From the IMG/VR virus record IMGVR_UViG_3300045988_103705: a stretch of DNA of 17,566 nucleotides; one strand, 5' to 3'. Position numbers and translations under genes: made by a program. Positions within the stretch are counted from its first letter, which is position 1; each line of letters opens with the position of its first letter. A model generated the notes under the pieces. It was not told where the DNA came from, made no database searches, and was given only the letters and a program-made list of their open reading frames with translations. Positions 12,716 through 17,502 of this stretch are shown in pieces. The stretch is from a virus.

Positions 12716-12744
12716 ATAATATCATATATTTTAAGAAAAATCAA
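12716..12744 (-). promoter_or_regulatory. Promoter TTGATT-N17-TATTAT (extended -10 TGATATTAT) for the rnhA/topoisomerase operon.
   Basis: Minus strand reads TTGATT TTTCTTAAAATATATGA TATTAT. Confidence 0.55.
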
Positions 12745-12757
12745 ACTACAAACAAAT

Positions 12758-12793
12758 AAAGGCTTAATGAGTATTTAACTCATTAAGCCTTTA
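12758..12793 (-). terminator. Intrinsic terminator (15-bp perfect stem aaaggcttaatgagt / actcattaagccttt) ending the lysis cassette.
   Basis: Perfect inverted repeat, followed on the minus strand by ATTTGTTTGTAGTTTGATTTTT. Confidence 0.7.
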
Positions 12794-12795
12794 TA

Positions 12796-13131
12796 TTAAA
12801 TAGGACCATCGAGATCAATGGGAATATCATTAGAGGCTGAAAAATCTTCTGCGGGGATGTTATATGCAGAATTGAATTCAGTTTCTTTTAAAGCTAGGTC
12901 ATAAGTAATGCCGCCCTTTTTGTGATCTGATTTAGCCATTGCTAAATAAAAAGAACAAACTACTCCGTGGGCGCTCCATGGTAGACCAACAAGAGCACTA
13001 ATCCATGGAAGGGTTCCTAAATATCCCATATAAACACACATAAATGCCAAAAGGATACCTGACACAGTCACGACCCATAATAACATACGAATATCATTTA
13101 TAAGTTTTTTGGAAAATTCTAATTTTTTCAT
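12796..13131 (-). CDS. Holin-like protein: two TM segments, charged C-terminus, ATGA overlap with the endolysin stop.
   Basis: 111 aa. Hydrophobic helices LLWVVTVSGILLAFMCVYMGYL and ISALVGLPWSAHGVVCSFYLAMA. Lies immediately downstream of the endolysin. Confidence 0.5.
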   Translation of the reverse strand: MKKLEFSKKLINDIRMLLWVVTVSGILLAFMCVYMGYLGTLPWISALVGLPWSAHGVVCSFYLAMAKSDHKKGGITYDLALKETEFNSAYNIPAEDFSASNDIPIDLDGPI

Positions 13132-14537
13132 TTTAAACCCAGCTTTTCAGCCAATCTTCTTAACATAGTTACAGTTTCTAATCTAGTGCAGAATTTATTT
13201 GGCATCATTCTTCCAGCACTGTCTCCAGCCATAATCCCATTTGCTTTAGCCCATTCAAGATTATCGGTGCCCCAAGTTTCTTTTTCATTAGCTTTATTAG
13301 TAAGCCAAGTATTCATAAGTTCAGCGAATTTCTCGTCAGTCATATCTTCATCATCCTCCTAGATATTTGACATTAAATTATAAACATCTGTTCTTGCGGT
13401 TTCCATGCTTTTTCCAAATTTTGGAAACCAATGGTTTACATCTGCATGATTAGATCCTAACCCTAACTTGTGACTATCAGCATGACATAAAATAGTTGGA
13501 ACGGTGATACCATTTAAAGTAGTGGTTCCCAATGGATTTATGTTATACATTTTACATAAATAAGCAGTAATTTGACAAGCCTCTTCATAAATTTTGTTAA
13601 AATAATTTGCATCATTTAATCCATCTTCGCAAATTTCAAACTGAATCCATCCATTATTACAAGAACCTTTAGACCCAGAACCGCATCCCCAAGGACGATA
13701 ATTCCATGGCATCGTCTATACTGTTGTTACCGTTCCATCAGCTAATTTACCAATCCAACAGTTTAATCCAGCTTGAATAGATATATGATTCCAGTCATTC
13801 TTGCTAGTATTTTTTCCTAATTTATTTATTAAACTGGTATAGTTAGGATCATTATCGCTTGGCTGTACGTATCTTTTTAAATTAGGATTATTTGCACCAG
13901 TACTATGCCATAAGATTCCTTTGACTTGCATGGTGCGTGTTTGTTTATAGCAAGTGCTATTTGTCATCATACATTGAAGTGGTTTATTGCTATCGCTATA
14001 TTTCATTTTATTACCTCCTTCAATTACATTTGAAATGTTAGCAAATTTATTATAATACTATTGACCATAATTAGCCCTCTTTTGTTGCATAGAAAAACTC
14101 TAGTCTGAAGGTCGTTCAAACTAGAGTAATACCGCGGTAGAAGCTTCTGTGACAGAAGTAGCAGAAATCAAAATTTTAACTAAACTAGAAAAACTTGTAA
14201 TTAATTCCTAATATAAAAAATCTAATTGAGTATTTAAATCTCCAATGGATTTACCTCGACTTTGACAGAACTAAAGCAAATTTTGTTTTCTGCTCCAAAA
14301 TGTCCATTGAGCCAATCCATACCCCGCTCCATCTTTTACAAAGTTTTTGTATCTTCCGTCATCAACTGCGGAAGTATATTCTGTATCGGTCATTTTTAAT
14401 TTTTTTTCATATGTGTTCTATAAGTTAATAGAATTAAGTTCACTCTCGGCATAAAGATTGCCCATTAAACCGGCAATTCCGCAATCACTAAAACCTTTGC
14501 CTTTAAAGTATTTCCAAATAACTTGGGCATTAGTCAT
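13128..14537 (-). CDS. Modular endolysin: phage-tail-lysozyme-like domain (GIAGLMGNLYAESELN...QLDFLY...FERP), Amidase_2/PGRP N-acetylmuramoyl-L-alanine amidase, and SLH cell-wall-binding domain. Contains 8 in-frame TAG codons.
   Basis: A single frame runs from ATG 14535-14537 to TGA 13128-13130. Its only interruptions are TAGs at 14418-14420, 14271-14273, 14208-14210, 14121-14123, 14100-14102, 14058-14060, 13716-13718 and 13359-13361. ORF-track fragments 13716..14006, 13359..13712 and 13128..13343 are in-frame pieces of it. Amidase motifs are ILWHSTGANNP and NNGWIQFEICED; SLH motif is WAKANGIMAGDSAGRMMPNKFCTRLETVTMLRRL. An internal SD GAAGGAGGT lies 7 nt before the ATG at 14004-14006. Confidence 0.8.
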
Positions 14538-14539
14538 TT

Positions 14540-15394
14540 TTATTTTTTTGTAATGAAAGAGCTATATCCAGCGGATTTTAATTTATCTTTTAGTCTTTCT
14601 GCATTTAATTTCACAGAGAAAGCGCCTAATTGAACTTTATAAAAAACTCCTACTTTCTTGACATATCCGCTAAATCCTTTCTCTTCCAATTCCTTTAACA
14701 TATTCTCTGCATTGGTTTTAGATAGAAATGCTCCTACTTGAACTCTGTAAAGAACTACCTCTTGTTCTTTCTTAAAATATACACACATTACATTATCAAC
14801 TGGTCTTGCATAAATTTGAGAAGTTTTTCTTTTCCCATCTATTAGTAATCTAGTAGATCCGCCTCCATCTAAATTAATAGCATATTCTACTTTCAATTCA
14901 AGAAAAATTTGCTATAGGGCAGCATAAGCAAGACCTGGAGAATCTACGGTTACAATATAATAATTATTTTTATTCCATCCAATACAAGTCCTGCGGGCTT
15001 TATGATCTAATTCTTTTCCATCTGTTATAACTATCTTTTTGCTATCTACAATTAATGCAGGATAAGCTGCAATAAAATCTCTGGCGGTTTGTAATCTTTT
15101 TAATGTTGTATATATAAGTGTTTTATTGCCGCTAATTGCAACCCCATGGCGAAAATCAGACTAAATAACAGTTCCTTCGTCTTTATAACTAAAGCAGGTA
15201 TTGCCATTGTTCATAGCAAAGAACCCTCCATTAGTAACAATATCTGGTTTAGTAGTCTGTCTTTTATAATAAACATCTGGAGTTTCCGTCGGTTGATTAC
15301 ATAAGGCAAAGTCAATTTTTTCAATGTCTACGAAGGGAATTGTTACAATTTGAACATAAGAATAGAGACTATGTTTTTTAATGCTATATCCCAT
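14540..15394 (-). CDS. NAGPA (phosphodiester glycosidase-like) domain protein with two C-terminal SPOR domains. Interrupted by in-frame TAGs at 15161-15163 and 14912-14914 and an in-frame TGA at 14897-14899.
   Basis: ORFs 15161..15394 (..NGGFF..) and 14540..14896 (AINLDGGGST..., then two SPOR repeats YRVQVGAF.. and YKVQLGAF..) share one frame. The intervening frame encodes ..IVTVDSPGLAYAAL[TAG]QIFL[TGA]LKVEYAINLDGGGS, which fits the conserved NAGPA domain core without gaps. RBS AAAGGAGATAAAGT upstream. Confidence 0.6.
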
Positions 15395-15416
15395 ACTTTA
15401 TCTCCTTTCAATAATA

Positions 15417-15444
15417 AAACCCAATCTCTTTAGAGATTGGGTTT
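15417..15444 (-). terminator. Intrinsic terminator (13-bp perfect stem aaacccaatctct / gagattgggttt) between phoH and the lysis genes. No promoter follows it.
   Basis: Perfect inverted repeat followed on the minus strand by TTTTATTATTG, then directly the RBS and ATG of the NAGPA gene. Confidence 0.65.
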
Positions 15445-15447
15445 AAA

Positions 15448-16704
15448 TCAAATATATTCAGCTATTTGCGCGATTCTAGATCTATAAATATTACGGAGTT
15501 CTACTTCACCGTATATATCTTGTCCTCTATAAACTTTAGAAACTCGTTTCATTCCATTGTTTATGCCAGCAAAATGAATATCATCAACTTGAGTTTTTTC
15601 ATCGCCGTCAATGATACAAATGCAATCCTCTCCAATTCTTTGAAGAGCCAACTTAATAAGTGTACGATCTAAATTCTGAGCTTCAGAAATGTATATACCT
15701 GCTCTTGAACCATTGGTATCATATCCTCTAATATCCGACATTGGTAGTAAAATTAATTTTTCTTCGCTCATAAGATGTTCTACTCCCGTTCTACCGCCGA
15801 ATTTAGATATTAGGAGATTGCCGATTTGAGAGTCTAATAGTTTTTCATCTCTTGTTCCAGGGAGAAATCCTAATCTTGCACTATTGGCTGTTGCAACGGT
15901 ATTGCAAAATACAATAATATGATCGAGTTCGCCTTTTTCTAGCTTAGACATTAAATAGGCTAGACTAATAAATGTCTTACCAGATCCCGCGGGCCCTTTA
16001 ATTAAAGTAATTTTATTATTAGATAAACTATCAAAAAGTAACTTTTGGTAAATATCATTTTGATATGGCTTTACTTTTCCAAACCAGTTTGAATTAAAGT
16101 CACTATAATTTAAATATCTATGGTCGTTTCCAGTCCACACTCTCAAATCTACTACTTTATCATCTATATCTCTTATAATGAGATATTCTCCAACATGAAG
16201 ATTAAAATGATTCAGCTCTGGTTTTTGATAAAACTCTGTAAGATTCTCATCACTAGCAGAAATTTCTTTATATCCACTATAATTATCAGTTTCTTCTGGA
16301 ATACTTTCTATCATGTCAGACCCGAAGAATAGATTTGCAATATGCTTTAGGCTTAAATCATTTGTTACAAAGATGACTTCATCCACTCTTTTATTATTAT
16401 TATACCAAATTGCATCAGACAGTATCCTTGTATCATCCGTTACGTCAAGACACATTTCTTTAATATAGTCTTCAAAATCTGTTTGATGGATTACTACTTC
16501 ATACATATCAGGGTGCGTTTCAAATAAATGTAGCAATAATCTAGCTGAATATTTTATATCTGAATCTTTATTGTTAGCGGTTTTAATTCTTTCCAATTCC
16601 TGAAAAGTAATTGATGATACAATAAATTTTTCATCATTATTGAATAAGCCTTCTCCGCATATCAATAGTGAACAAGTATCATAGAACCGAATATCTTTAT
16701 TCAT
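15448..16704 (-). CDS. phoH: PIN-domain plus PhoH-like ATPase (YlaK-like). Stop is TGA.
   Basis: 418 aa. N-terminal PIN-like region (RFYDTCSLL...). PhoH P-loop LIKGPAGSGKTFISLAYLM. Confidence 0.8.
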   Translation of the reverse strand: MNKDIRFYDTCSLLICGEGLFNNDEKFIVSSITFQELERIKTANNKDSDIKYSARLLLHLFETHPDMYEVVIHQTDFEDYIKEMCLDVTDDTRILSDAIWYNNNKRVDEVIFVTNDLSLKHIANLFFGSDMIESIPEETDNYSGYKEISASDENLTEFYQKPELNHFNLHVGEYLIIRDIDDKVVDLRVWTGNDHRYLNYSDFNSNWFGKVKPYQNDIYQKLLFDSLSNNKITLIKGPAGSGKTFISLAYLMSKLEKGELDHIIVFCNTVATANSARLGFLPGTRDEKLLDSQIGNLLISKFGGRTGVEHLMSEEKLILLPMSDIRGYDTNGSRAGIYISEAQNLDRTLIKLALQRIGEDCICIIDGDEKTQVDDIHFAGINNGMKRVSKVYRGQDIYGEVELRNIYRSRIAQIAEYI

Positions 16705-17472: not shown

Positions 17473-17502
17473 ATTATATCATTTATTTATAGAAAAATCC
17501 AA
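17473..17502 (-). promoter_or_regulatory. Promoter TTGGAT-N18-TATAAT with extended -10 TGATATAAT.
   Basis: Minus strand reads TTGGAT TTTTCTATAAATAAATGA TATAAT, about 35 nt upstream of the RBS and ATG at 17434. Confidence 0.5.

What the first reader, a model, noticed from the sequence alone, without database searches (positions are those of the whole stretch)
14540..15444. Lysis cassette sits directly behind an intrinsic terminator with no promoter of its own
The 13-bp-stem terminator at 15417-15444 is followed immediately by the RBS and ATG of the NAGPA-SPOR gene. The endolysin start is coupled to its stop (TAAAAATG), and the holin start overlaps the endolysin stop (ATGA). Lysis-gene expression therefore appears to need both transcriptional readthrough or antitermination and amber suppression. 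That would be a two-layer gate on lysis timing.
Basis: inference. Interest (0 to 1): 0.55.

Follow-up and report, generated by a model that had tools for sequence, protein, structure and literature searches.

The report
Terminator-bracketed, TAG-recoded phage lysis cassette
In a large uncultivated phage that reads the TAG stop codon as glutamine, the cell-lysis genes form a promoterless block between two conserved transcription terminators inside the early replication gene arm, so a known translation-level lock on lysis is combined here with a transcription-level one.

Summary
A 12-bp hairpin with a 4-nt loop and a U-rich tail (15444-15417, "T1") starts 3 nt after the PIN-PhoH stop codon. It ends 22 nt before the ATG of a NAGPA-SPOR gene.

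Read with TAG as a sense codon, the cassette is NAGPA-SPOR (2 TAG), one 469-aa Phage_lysozyme2 + Amidase_2 + SLH-like endolysin (8 TAG), and a 111-aa two-TM putative holin (0 TAG). A second, stronger terminator (T2, 12794-12756) follows, then a promoter.

In about 26 related viral contigs a hairpin with a T-tract occupies the T1 position. Seven unrelated stem sequences and two compensatory changes are seen. One relative has no in-frame TAG in the 12 kb sampled and still has T1.

A sigma-A-like promoter class occurs six times in the window and at orthologous sites in relatives. It is absent for 700 nt upstream of every lysis cassette.

So "no recognisable promoter, must pass a terminator" is supported. 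Active antitermination and the "two-layer timing gate" are not shown. The holin here can be reached from a TAG-free internal start. TAGs also occur in DnaB, ThyX and RecJ-like genes. Both layers have precedents, so this is a new variant of a known kind.

The parts
17473..17502 (-). Nearest upstream promoter of the phage's sigma-A-like class (TTGGAT-18-TGATATAAT). It heads the unit g17434 - g16927 - PIN-PhoH.
   Evidence: PWM score 31 bits. An orthologous promoter is found upstream of the g17434 homologue in all nine relatives tested.
15448..16704 (-). PIN-PhoH gene (418 aa, 0 TAG). Last gene before the terminator.
   Evidence: Pfam PhoH 4.5e-26 and PIN_4 2.6e-10; PHROG 2765 8e-69. No unusual synonymous constraint at its 3' end.
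15417..15444 (-). T1: intrinsic-terminator-like hairpin (12 bp, 4-nt loop) followed by UAUUAUUG.
   Evidence: dG -17.5, z -5.2. Positionally conserved, with seven unrelated stems and two compensatory changes. Pairing probability 0.96 with 150 nt of upstream context.
15401..15409 (-). Shine-Dalgarno GAAAGGAGA for the first cassette gene.
   Evidence: SD duplex -9.0 kcal/mol. 7-nt spacer to ATG 15394.
14540..15394 (-). NAGPA (phosphodiester glycosidase) + SPOR gene, 284 aa, with in-frame TAGs at 15163 and 14914.
   Evidence: Present only in the window's subclade L001-L004.
14535..14542 (-). TAAAAATG stop/start junction. The endolysin start has no SD.
   Evidence: SD dG +2.0. Termination-reinitiation coupling is inferred, not shown.
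13128..14537 (-). 469-aa endolysin ORF (Phage_lysozyme2 + Amidase_2 + SLH-like tail). In-frame TAGs at 14420, 14273, 14210, 14123, 14102, 14060, 13718 and 13361.
   Evidence: The fused architecture is conserved in relatives. TAG positions align mostly with CAA/CAG.
14004..14021 (-). In-frame internal SD (GAAGGAGG) + ATG 14006 at the start of the amidase domain.
   Evidence: Strongest SD in the window, -13.4. The SD and ATG-AAA-TAT are conserved at nucleotide level in six other lineages although the linker residues differ.
13341..13360 (-). In-frame internal SD (AGGAGG, overlapping TAG 13361) + ATG 13343. It opens a TAG-free 71-codon frame (SLH-like tail) that ends at the holin start.
   Evidence: SD -10.2. 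Conserved in L004, L005, L008 and L013.
12796..13131 (-). Putative holin: 111 aa, two hydrophobic segments, 0 TAG. Its ATG overlaps the endolysin TGA (ATGA, 13131-13128).
   Evidence: Hydropathy. Weak SD, -4.2. No family hit. 353 unnamed homologues. Homologues in relatives carry 1-5 TAGs.
12756..12794 (-). T2: 17-bp hairpin terminator directly after the holin stop.
   Evidence: dG -23.3, z -7.0. Present after the holin in all lineages examined, and more stable than T1 in 9 of 9.
12716..12744 (-). Sigma-A-like promoter (TTGATT-17-TGATATTAT) that restarts transcription for RNase H and the topoisomerase genes.
   Evidence: 34 bits. An orthologous promoter sits right after T2 in all nine relatives.

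Best explanation
T1 is a genuine Rho-independent terminator. It closes the sigma-A-driven unit g17434 - g16927 - PIN-PhoH and acts as an attenuator in front of a promoterless lysis module (NAGPA-SPOR, three-domain endolysin, putative holin). T2 then closes the module and a fresh promoter restarts the replication genes.

The module lies deep inside a same-strand, TAG-poor early/metabolic/replication arm of a roughly 115-146-kb phage that decodes TAG as Gln (code 15). The host is probably a Firmicute.

Lysis mRNA is made only by polymerases that read through T1. I favour partial, passive readthrough that gives a low mRNA dose. The three catalytic domains become functional only when TAG is decoded: 10 in-frame TAGs, the first at codon 78 of NAGPA-SPOR and at codon 40 of the endolysin.

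Within the cassette, ribosomes load at three SD sites (15409, 14021, 13360). The endolysin start and the holin start depend on coupling to the upstream frame.

Shown: the anatomy, conservation of T1 and T2, absence of the phage's promoter class, TAG = Gln, and TAG enrichment.
Inferred: that T1 terminates, that it is leaky, and the timing consequences.
For: - T1 has canonical terminator anatomy and beats all shuffles.
- A hairpin plus T-tract occupies the same position (-2 to +17 nt from the PhoH stop) in 26 of the 27 related loci checked. Detailed scans of eight lineage representatives gave seven unrelated stem families plus G-C>A-T (L005/L007) and C-G>T-A (L018/L019) compensatory changes.
- The one relative whose PhoH is not followed by a lysis cassette (L024) has no T1.
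- In eight diverged lineages, T1 and T2 are the only long-stem (9-17 bp) terminator-like hairpins in the PhoH-to-RNase H interval. The only extra hits there are marginal 8-bp stems inside coding sequence. The window subclade alone adds an internal 13-bp hairpin at 14127-14097.
- Promoter PWM: six sites score 26-42 bits in the window, against 5.1 bits at best upstream of the cassette. In nine relatives the orthologous promoters are recovered (12.9-34 bits), but nothing above 3.9 bits lies within 700 nt of the lysis start. The generic scan is at chance.
- T1 is less stable than T2 in 9 of 9 lineages (sign test p = 0.004; about 7 of these are independent). This fits an attenuator followed by a full stop.
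- There is no alternative fold: P(pair) is 0.92-0.99.
- TAG aligns with Gln 98 times, against 42 for the next residue. TAG/(TAG+CAA+CAG) is 10/34 in the lysis enzymes and 0/48 in the flanking PhoH, RNase H and topoisomerase genes (p = 6e-5).
- Precedent for harmless early transcription of an endolysin and a holin in a Firmicute siphophage: SPP1 promoter PE5 (PMC6316719).
- Precedent for recoded lysis cassettes: Borges et al. (bioRxiv 10.1101/2021.08.26.457843).
Against: - There are no transcript data. Termination efficiency cannot be computed reliably.
- A promoter of an unknown class (phage sigma factor, or a -10-only late promoter) could overlap the U-tract. The T1 tails all contain TAT(A/T)-like strings.
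- L028 has no in-frame TAG in its lysis genes yet keeps T1. Something other than the code must time lysis there, which leaves room for active antitermination.
- The holin in this window is TAG-free and reachable from the SD+ATG at 13343. Leaky early transcription would therefore make holin early, which could be harmful.
- TAGs in DnaB, ThyX and RecJ-like genes imply that suppression is already needed for replication-stage genes.
- No suppressor tRNA was seen in 42.7 kb.
Confidence: 0.5

Rival explanations
1. Active, factor-dependent antitermination, working like lambda Q. T1 is tight, and a phage-encoded protein or RNA made later modifies RNA polymerase so that it reads through T1 (and perhaps other promoterless terminators such as 5930-5902). 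That would switch the lysis module on late.
For: - The cassette is promoterless behind a conserved terminator in all lineages.
- L028 keeps T1 although its lysis genes carry no TAG. T1 alone must be compatible with correct timing there.
- The window's holin has no TAG, so transcription is its only visible gate.
- A 'Q-dependent antitermination protein' is annotated in the similar phAss-1 group (PMC10607447 supplements).
Against: - No Q, N, LoaP or NusG-like gene, and no put-like or other Rfam element, in the window or its flanks.
- No promoter or pause-site module lies within 700 nt of T1, unlike pR'-qut-tR'.
- The window's clade is not the phAss-1 group: the PhoH length and the holin position differ.
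- T1 is consistently the weaker of the two terminators.
Confidence: 0.2
2. The cassette has its own late promoter of an unrecognised type. For example, a -10-only element read by a phage sigma factor or a modified polymerase (as with T4 late promoters) could lie in the U-tract of T1, with a start site a few nt upstream of the SD. T1 would then only end the PhoH unit.
For: - All T1 tails hold a T-run followed by TAT(A/T)A-like strings: TTTTATTATTG, TTTTTATACCC, TTTTATATACCC, TTTTTATTAAAC, TTTTTATAAGTC. T2 tails are TTTGTTTG-like.
- TATACCCTAA(T/A)TGGAGG is conserved between the L005 and L008 groups although their hairpins differ.
- In SPP1 no consensus late promoter could be recognised either (PMC6316719).
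Against: - No shared motif longer than an AT-rich trinucleotide pattern occurs across lineages.
- There is no TG extended -10.
- The window's 22-nt gap would leave a leader that starts inside or at the SD.
- The hairpin sequence, which would have to supply any upstream element, is not conserved.
- There is no extra synonymous constraint at the PhoH 3' end.
Confidence: 0.2
3. The hairpin is mainly an RNA-stability or processing element, not a transcriptional gate. It would protect the 3' end of the PhoH mRNA, or serve as an RNase III site separating two mRNAs.
For: Stable hairpins at 3' ends protect mRNA from exonucleases (established knowledge). Conservation of structure without sequence is also what such an element would show.
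Against: A U-rich tract directly follows the stem in every lineage. That is specific to intrinsic termination and is not required for a stabiliser. The same terminator-then-promoter grammar recurs at T2, 7935 and 1660, where a new promoter follows. That shows these hairpins delimit transcription units.
Confidence: 0.05

Closest known systems
Recoded (code 15, TAG>Gln) lysis cassettes of gut phages: Borges et al., 'Stop codon recoding is widespread...' (bioRxiv 10.1101/2021.08.26.457843); experimental support for code 15 in PMC9523058
   Same: TAG is a sense codon (Gln). It is concentrated in the endolysin-type genes and absent from the neighbouring replication genes. The proposed role is to block premature production of lysis proteins.
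   Different: - In the examples described there, the recoded lysis cassettes are shown alongside recoded structural (tail) genes. Promoters, terminators and antitermination are not mentioned at all (0 occurrences).
- Here the cassette is embedded in the early/replication arm, has no promoter and is bracketed by two conserved terminators.
- The holin in this window carries no TAG.
- No suppressor tRNA or code-change module was seen within 42.7 kb.
Lambda late/lysis control: pR' - qut - tR' - S R Rz with the Q antiterminator (established knowledge; see also PMC7547250, PMC6266700)
   Same: An intrinsic terminator stands immediately upstream of a lysis cassette that has no promoter of its own downstream of it. 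Lysis-gene expression requires readthrough.
   Different: In lambda, a constitutive promoter and a Q-loading site lie about 200 nt upstream of the terminator, and the Q gene is adjacent. Here the nearest promoter is about 2.1 kb upstream and drives ordinary early-type genes. No Q-like gene or loading site was detected.
Bacillus phage SPP1 early-transcribed lysis genes: genes 25 and 26 from promoter PE5 (PMC6316719)
   Same: A Firmicute siphophage in which the endolysin and a holin sit in a sigma-A-driven early unit delimited by stem-loop terminators. Early mRNA is harmless because one component is missing until late.
   Different: In SPP1 the missing late component is a second holin subunit (gp24.1), and PE5 is a mapped promoter inside the preceding gene. 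Here the missing component would be TAG decoding, and a terminator rather than a promoter precedes the cassette.
Endolysins with in-frame internal translation starts: CTP1L (PMC4777826), the survey in PMC9430671, phi2638A (PMC12203907)
   Same: A strong SD+ATG inside the endolysin ORF just before the C-terminal wall-binding module (13360-13341), and another before the second catalytic domain (14021-14004).
   Different: Here one internal SD contains a recoded TAG. The internal frame is TAG-free and is coupled to the holin start. No products have been demonstrated.
phAss-1 / proposed 'Phassvirus' group (PMC10607447)
   Same: Human-gut phages of about 133-138 kb with siphovirus-type tails. They use TAG>Gln, have a predicted Clostridia host, and show PhoH next to lysozyme next to amidase on one strand.
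   Different: The PhoH there is about 280 aa with no PIN fusion. The holin lies upstream of PhoH, next to tail genes, and the lysozyme and amidase are separate genes. Three tRNA-Sup(CTA) genes are reported. Sequence relationship to this window could not be tested because the records are not held locally.

Membership tests
Rho-independent (intrinsic) terminator | Stable G+C-containing stem with a short loop | tested here: met
   12 bp (5 G-C) with a 4-nt loop. dG -16.5 for the hairpin alone and -17.5 in context; z = -5.2.
Rho-independent (intrinsic) terminator | U-rich tract immediately 3' of the stem | tested here: met
   GGG-UUUUAUUAUU, 8 U of 10. A T-rich tail follows the stem in every relative.
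Rho-independent (intrinsic) terminator | Placed at the end of a transcription unit, on the coding strand, and kept in place by selection | tested here: met
   3 nt after the PhoH stop here, and -2 to +17 nt in relatives. Seven unrelated stem families and two compensatory changes at the same position.
Rho-independent (intrinsic) terminator | Releases transcripts in vitro or in vivo | not testable with these tools
   No transcript data are available.
Code-15 (TAG>Gln) recoded phage | In-frame TAGs inside conserved domains; ORFs and domain hits are restored when TAG is read as sense | tested here: met
   ORF coverage of the window rises from 0.64 to 0.82.
Code-15 (TAG>Gln) recoded phage | TAG positions align with Gln codons in homologues | tested here: met
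   Gln 98, Lys 42, Glu 40.
Code-15 (TAG>Gln) recoded phage | TAG not used as the terminal stop codon | tested here: met
   All 20 complete genes end in TAA or TGA.
Code-15 (TAG>Gln) recoded phage | Phage-encoded suppressor tRNA(CTA) or other code-change gene | tested here: not met
   No tRNA in the window, in L001-L028, or across contig 084596 positions 91,048-133,727. The rest of the genome was not available. Recoded phages without suppressor tRNA genes are reported (PMC10607447).
Recoded-lysis-cassette pattern (Borges et al.) | Preferential TAG use in lysis genes relative to replication genes | tested here: met
   10/34 against 0/48 in the flanking genes, p = 6e-5; against all other genes, p = 0.003. 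Exceptions: ThyX, DnaB, g17434, a GIY-YIG ORF and a RecJ-like ORF also carry TAGs.
Lambda-type Q antitermination unit | Terminator directly upstream of the lysis genes | tested here: met
   T1 at 15444-15417, 22 nt before the first lysis-gene ATG.
Lambda-type Q antitermination unit | Dedicated promoter with a factor-loading or pause site shortly upstream of that terminator | tested here: not met
   The best phage-class promoter score within about 700 nt is 5.1 bits, against 26-42 for real sites. The generic scan is at chance. No synonymous constraint at the PhoH 3' end.
Lambda-type Q antitermination unit | Q-family (or other) antiterminator gene | tested here: not met
   None among the window proteins or L001 flank proteins scanned with Pfam, PHROGs and NCBIfam. 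Several small window ORFs (g7853, g6427, g4988) were not scanned. Only about 43 kb of a genome of roughly 115-146 kb was seen.
Holin-endolysin lysis cassette | Peptidoglycan hydrolase gene(s) | tested here: met
   Phage_lysozyme2 2e-34 and Amidase_2 2e-11; PHROG endolysin families 9e-65 and 2e-34.
Holin-endolysin lysis cassette | Adjacent small membrane protein that is a member of a holin family | tested here: inconclusive
   111 aa with two hydrophobic segments, and conserved next to the endolysin in all lineages. No Pfam, PHROG or NCBIfam family, and no named homologue among 353.
Endolysins with internal translation start (two-product endolysins) | In-frame SD+start codon inside the ORF, upstream of the wall-binding module | tested here: met
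   AGGAGG + ATG 13343 (-10.2) and GAAGGAGG + ATG 14006 (-13.4). The latter is conserved at nucleotide level although the amino acids vary.
Endolysins with internal translation start (two-product endolysins) | Short product actually made and assembled with the full-length enzyme | not testable with these tools
   Needs protein work.

The most novel reading that the evidence does not exclude
In this clade the lysis module is transcribed from the start of infection, as leak-through from a host-type early promoter across an attenuating terminator. It is kept harmless mainly by genetic-code incompatibility, so the switch of the cell's code, rather than a late promoter, would be the lysis timer. Lineages with TAG-rich holins, with TAG-free holins (this window), and with no TAG at all in the region sampled (L028), all sharing the same T1-cassette-T2 frame, would then be natural variants of one circuit. 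They would allow a direct test of the Borges hypothesis.
Probability: 0.3. Interest if true: 0.65.

Novelty: new variant of a known kind. Interest (0 to 1): 0.4.

Why it matters
The idea that stop-codon recoding protects phages from premature lysis is still a genomic inference. It carries most weight if lysis mRNA is present before the code changes.

This clade places a promoterless lysis module inside an early, host-promoter-driven arm, behind a conserved and comparatively weak terminator. That is the arrangement in which translation-level gating would matter most. The clade also supplies natural controls: a TAG-free holin in this window, TAG-bearing holins in sister lineages, and a relative with no TAG in the region sampled.

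This makes the hypothesis testable with a few reporter constructs or with time-resolved metatranscriptomics.

Practically, the region shows how standard-code gene callers break such cassettes apart: NAGPA-SPOR into three pieces and the endolysin into nine. It also shows that terminator and promoter grammar can be read reliably in uncultivated phages.

Tried and rejected
- Rfam at gathering thresholds on the window, L028 and L030: no hits. No known antitermination RNA, riboswitch or intron model.
- tRNA search in the window and 48 related loci: none. The suppressor tRNA remains unlocated.
- Extending coverage 10 kb beyond each end of the neighbourhood (DnaB side; NAD synthase side) to reach late genes and derive a late-promoter motif. 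Both directions are still TAG-poor metabolic or replication genes. No late-promoter model could be built and I stopped there.
- Cultured-phage records: no close relative. The best PhoH match is 40% identity to Alicyclobacillus, Geobacillus and Bacillus phages.
- phAss-1 relatives BK025033 and BK046881 are not in the local collections. The supplement gene tables show a different arrangement, so I did not file the window under that group.
- Cis-acting attenuator or riboswitch idea: rejected. T1 pairs with probability 0.92-0.99 in all 12 variants, with no competing fold.
- Hidden promoter embedded in the PhoH 3' end: no excess synonymous conservation (0.25, against a range of 0.25-0.42).
- g17434, the conserved first gene of the unit, as a candidate regulator: no hit in Pfam, PHROGs, NCBIfam or PDB sequences.
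- The internal TAG-bearing hairpin at 14127-14097 as a conserved translation-coupled attenuator: rejected as a clade feature. It occurs only in the near-identical L001-L003 and is degraded in L004.
- TAGs clustering at domain boundaries just before the internal SDs (L021, L026, window): not pursued as significant. TAG density in the lysozyme domain is about 1 per 30 codons anyway.
Full report
**What is there**

All genes in the window lie on the minus strand. The standard code breaks the region 15394-12796 into fragments. With TAG read as sense it resolves into three ORFs:
- a 284-aa NAGPA + SPOR protein (15394-14540, 2 TAG);
- a single 469-aa ORF with Phage_lysozyme2, Amidase_2 and an SLH-like tail (14537-13128, 8 TAG);
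- a 111-aa protein with two hydrophobic segments (13131-12796, 0 TAG).

Domain hits are strong for the enzymes (NAGPA 1.6e-20, SPOR 7e-16, lysozyme2 2e-34, Amidase_2 2e-11; PHROG endolysin families). The 'holin' has no hit in Pfam, PHROGs or NCBIfam, and none of its 353 homologues is named. Its role is inferred from position, size and hydropathy.

Upstream is a PIN-PhoH gene (16704-15448, 0 TAG). Downstream are RNase H and two type II topoisomerase subunits (0 TAG).

**The observation**

The hairpin at 15444-15417 is real. dG is -17.5 kcal/mol, z = -5.2, and no shuffle out of 200 folds as well. It begins 3 nt after the PhoH TGA and is followed by UAUUAUUG. The SD GAAAGGAGA (15409-15401) and ATG 15394 come next.

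The junction TAAAAATG (14542-14535) and the ATGA overlap (13131-13128) are as described. The endolysin start has no SD (+2.0 kcal/mol) and the holin start has a weak one (-4.2). Both therefore look coupled to the upstream frame. Terminator-like sites are enriched in the window, 20 against 6.7 +/- 2.7 in shuffles.

**Conservation**

Using PhoH as a handle, 29 IMG/VR loci were fetched, from contigs of up to 148 kb. The order g17434 - PhoH - endolysin - holin - RNase H - topoisomerase holds down to 55% PhoH identity. The NAGPA-SPOR gene is an addition found only in the window's subclade.

Directly after the PhoH stop, 26 of the 27 loci checked have a hairpin plus T-tract. Across lineages there are seven unrelated stem sequences. 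Within lineages there are two compensatory changes: G-C to A-T between L005 and L007, and C-G to T-A between L018 and L019.

In eight diverged representatives, T1 (after PhoH) and T2 (after the holin) are the only long-stem terminator-like hairpins in the PhoH-to-RNase H interval. The remaining hits there are marginal 8-bp stems inside coding sequence. The window subclade has one extra internal hairpin, described below.

L024 is the only relative whose PhoH is not followed by a lysis cassette, and it has no hairpin. L028 has no TAG at all in its 13 ORFs, neither in frame nor as a stop, and still has both T1 and T2. The terminator bracket is therefore a property of the lysis module and does not depend on recoding.

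**Promoters**

Six intergenic sites in the window share one extended sigma-A-like architecture, TTGAyTTTTT...TGATATTATATwTATATAAAG. Their -35 elements start at 17502, 12744, 7902, 6506, 4088 and 1622, and several sit immediately after a terminator hairpin.

A weight matrix built from them scores the six sites at 26-42 bits (5.6-33 bits when each is left out). The best score anywhere in 15400-16100 is 5.1 bits, below the mean maximum of shuffled sequence, 10.4. The generic sigma-70 scan of 15380-16100 is at chance level, and its only minus-strand hit is upstream of T1 anyway.

The same matrix, built only from the window, recovers the orthologous promoters in nine relatives: upstream of the g17434 homologue and right after T2, at 12.9-34 bits. 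It finds nothing above 3.9 bits within 700 nt of any lysis start.

The gap between hairpin and start codon is only 22-30 nt in the lineages where it could be read, apart from the L018 group, where it is longer. The 3' end of PhoH shows no excess synonymous conservation.

So any polymerase entering the cassette must cross T1, unless an unknown -10-only promoter sits in the U-tract.

**How T1 probably behaves**

With 150 nt of upstream context T1 pairs with probability 0.92-0.99 in 12 sequence variants. There is no built-in antiterminator fold, so it is not a cis-acting attenuator.

T1 is less stable than T2 in all nine lineages compared, for example -16.5 against -22.8 kcal/mol in the window. 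About seven of these are independent. That fits a partial terminator followed by a full stop and a fresh promoter.

No antiterminator gene or RNA element was found in the window or its flanks. Only about 43 kb of a roughly 115-146-kb genome could be examined.

**The code layer**

TAG positions align predominantly with CAA/CAG in relatives: Gln 98, against 42 for the next residue. No gene ends in TAG. This is genetic code 15.

TAG makes up 10 of 34 Gln-type codons in the two lysis enzymes and 0 of 48 in the flanking PhoH, RNase H and topoisomerase genes (p = 6e-5). This matches the pattern Borges et al. proposed as a guard against premature lysis.

Three facts limit the 'amber gate on lysis timing' reading.
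- TAGs also occur in ThyX (2), DnaB (1-2), g17434 (1), a GIY-YIG ORF (9) and a RecJ-like ORF (13) in the replication arm. Suppression must therefore already work when replication genes are expressed.
- The holin in this window has no TAG. A strong in-frame SD+ATG at 13360-13341 opens a TAG-free 71-codon frame that ends in the ATGA overlap. Ribosomes can therefore reach the holin without decoding any TAG. In sister lineages the holin carries 1-5 TAGs.
- No suppressor tRNA was found in the window, in 48 related loci, or across 42.7 kb of the closest relative's contig.

**Context**

The genes 15 kb upstream encode NAD salvage, Thg1-like, kinase, phosphoesterase and ligase-like functions. The genes 20 kb downstream encode primase, RecJ-like and helicase functions, plus a long ORF that runs off the locus. 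Almost all are TAG-free and on the same strand. The lysis module is an island inside the early arm, not the tail of a structural operon.

A precedent for harmless early transcription of lysis genes exists in SPP1. Its endolysin and one holin are made from early promoter PE5, and lysis waits for a late holin subunit (PMC6316719).

**Verdict**

The inference 'no promoter of its own, must pass a terminator' is well supported for the promoter class this phage visibly uses.

'Antitermination' and 'two-layer timing gate' remain hypotheses. I rate partial readthrough combined with a code-dependent block on the enzymes as most likely (0.5). Factor-dependent antitermination (0.2) and an unrecognised late promoter (0.2) are the main rivals.

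Each layer has a well-known precedent: lambda tR'/Q for the terminator, and recoded lysis cassettes for the code. The combination and its placement inside an early arm are a new variant, and a useful test bed rather than a new principle.

Noticed in passing
window 14021-14004 and 13360-13341 (minus strand): The 469-aa endolysin ORF contains two in-frame internal SD+ATG sites, before the amidase domain and before the SLH-like tail. The first has the strongest SD in the window and is conserved at nucleotide level in all lineages although the linker amino acids differ. The second SD overlaps the recoded TAG at 13361. The enzyme may be made as several products, as in CTP1L-type endolysins.
   Followed up: partly
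window 14127-14097 (minus strand): A 13-bp hairpin with a T-rich tail lies inside the lysozyme domain, and each arm contains an in-frame TAG (14123, 14102). It is present only in the window and the near-identical L001-L003 and is degraded in L004. It is probably a by-product of two palindromic CTAGs, although a ribosome-dependent internal terminator is conceivable.
   Followed up: partly
window 5930-5902 and 5892-5065 (minus strand): A second TAG-rich ORF (9 TAGs; N-terminal TM segment, coiled coil, partial GIY-YIG domain) also sits directly behind a strong terminator (12 bp, 7 G-C, U6). It has no promoter and no SD. This is the same 'terminator then TAG-rich gene' pattern as the lysis cassette. 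A third promoterless terminator junction (2698-2642) precedes a TAG-free AAA_24 gene.
   Followed up: partly
window -35 starts at 17502, 12744, 7902, 6506, 4088, 1622 (minus strand): Six copies of one extended sigma-A-like promoter (TTGAyTTTTT - 17/18 nt - TGATATTAT - ATwTATATAAAG), several directly abutting a terminator hairpin. The motif is recovered at orthologous sites in relatives and could be used to map early units in this clade.
   Followed up: yes
window 15394-14540; loci L001-L004 versus L005-L028: The NAGPA (phosphodiester glycosidase) + SPOR gene is present only in the window's subclade, inserted between T1 and the endolysin. Its SD took over the post-terminator position and the endolysin lost its own SD. 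It may be an accessory wall-polymer-cleaving lysis enzyme. Endolysin catalytic domains are swapped between lineages (amidase-only in L018, peptidase-like in L028, 616-815 aa versions in L020, L021 and L026), while the T1/T2 frame stays in place.
   Followed up: partly
L028 5350-7914: In a relative with no TAG in the 12 kb sampled, PhoH is split by a roughly 1.3-kb insert carrying a 314-aa ORF with LAGLIDADG motifs. This is probably an intron or homing-endonuclease insertion. No Rfam intron model matched.
   Followed up: partly
window 4723-4085 (ThyX), 1050-1 (DnaB), 17434-16973; L030 13134-14885: In-frame TAGs also occur in replication and nucleotide-metabolism genes, including a RecJ/DHH-like ORF with 13 TAGs in the middle of the replication operon. 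Small Zn-finger endonuclease-like ORFs (L003 4341-5087, L008 4617-5396) are also TAG-rich. TAG use is therefore not restricted to late or lysis genes in this clade.
   Followed up: partly
L001 1-5270; L072 1-10000: The arm upstream of the PhoH unit encodes NAD salvage (NAPRTase, NAD synthase). It also holds a set of tRNA-repair-like genes (Thg1-like guanylyltransferase, AAA_33 kinase, metallophosphoesterases). No tRNA gene occurs anywhere in the 42.7 kb examined.
   Followed up: no
window 16927-16697 (minus strand): A 76-aa ORF with an N-terminal hydrophobic segment and an acidic tail overlaps the PhoH start by 8 nt. It has no family hit. Whether it is a membrane protein related to lysis control is unknown.
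   Followed up: no
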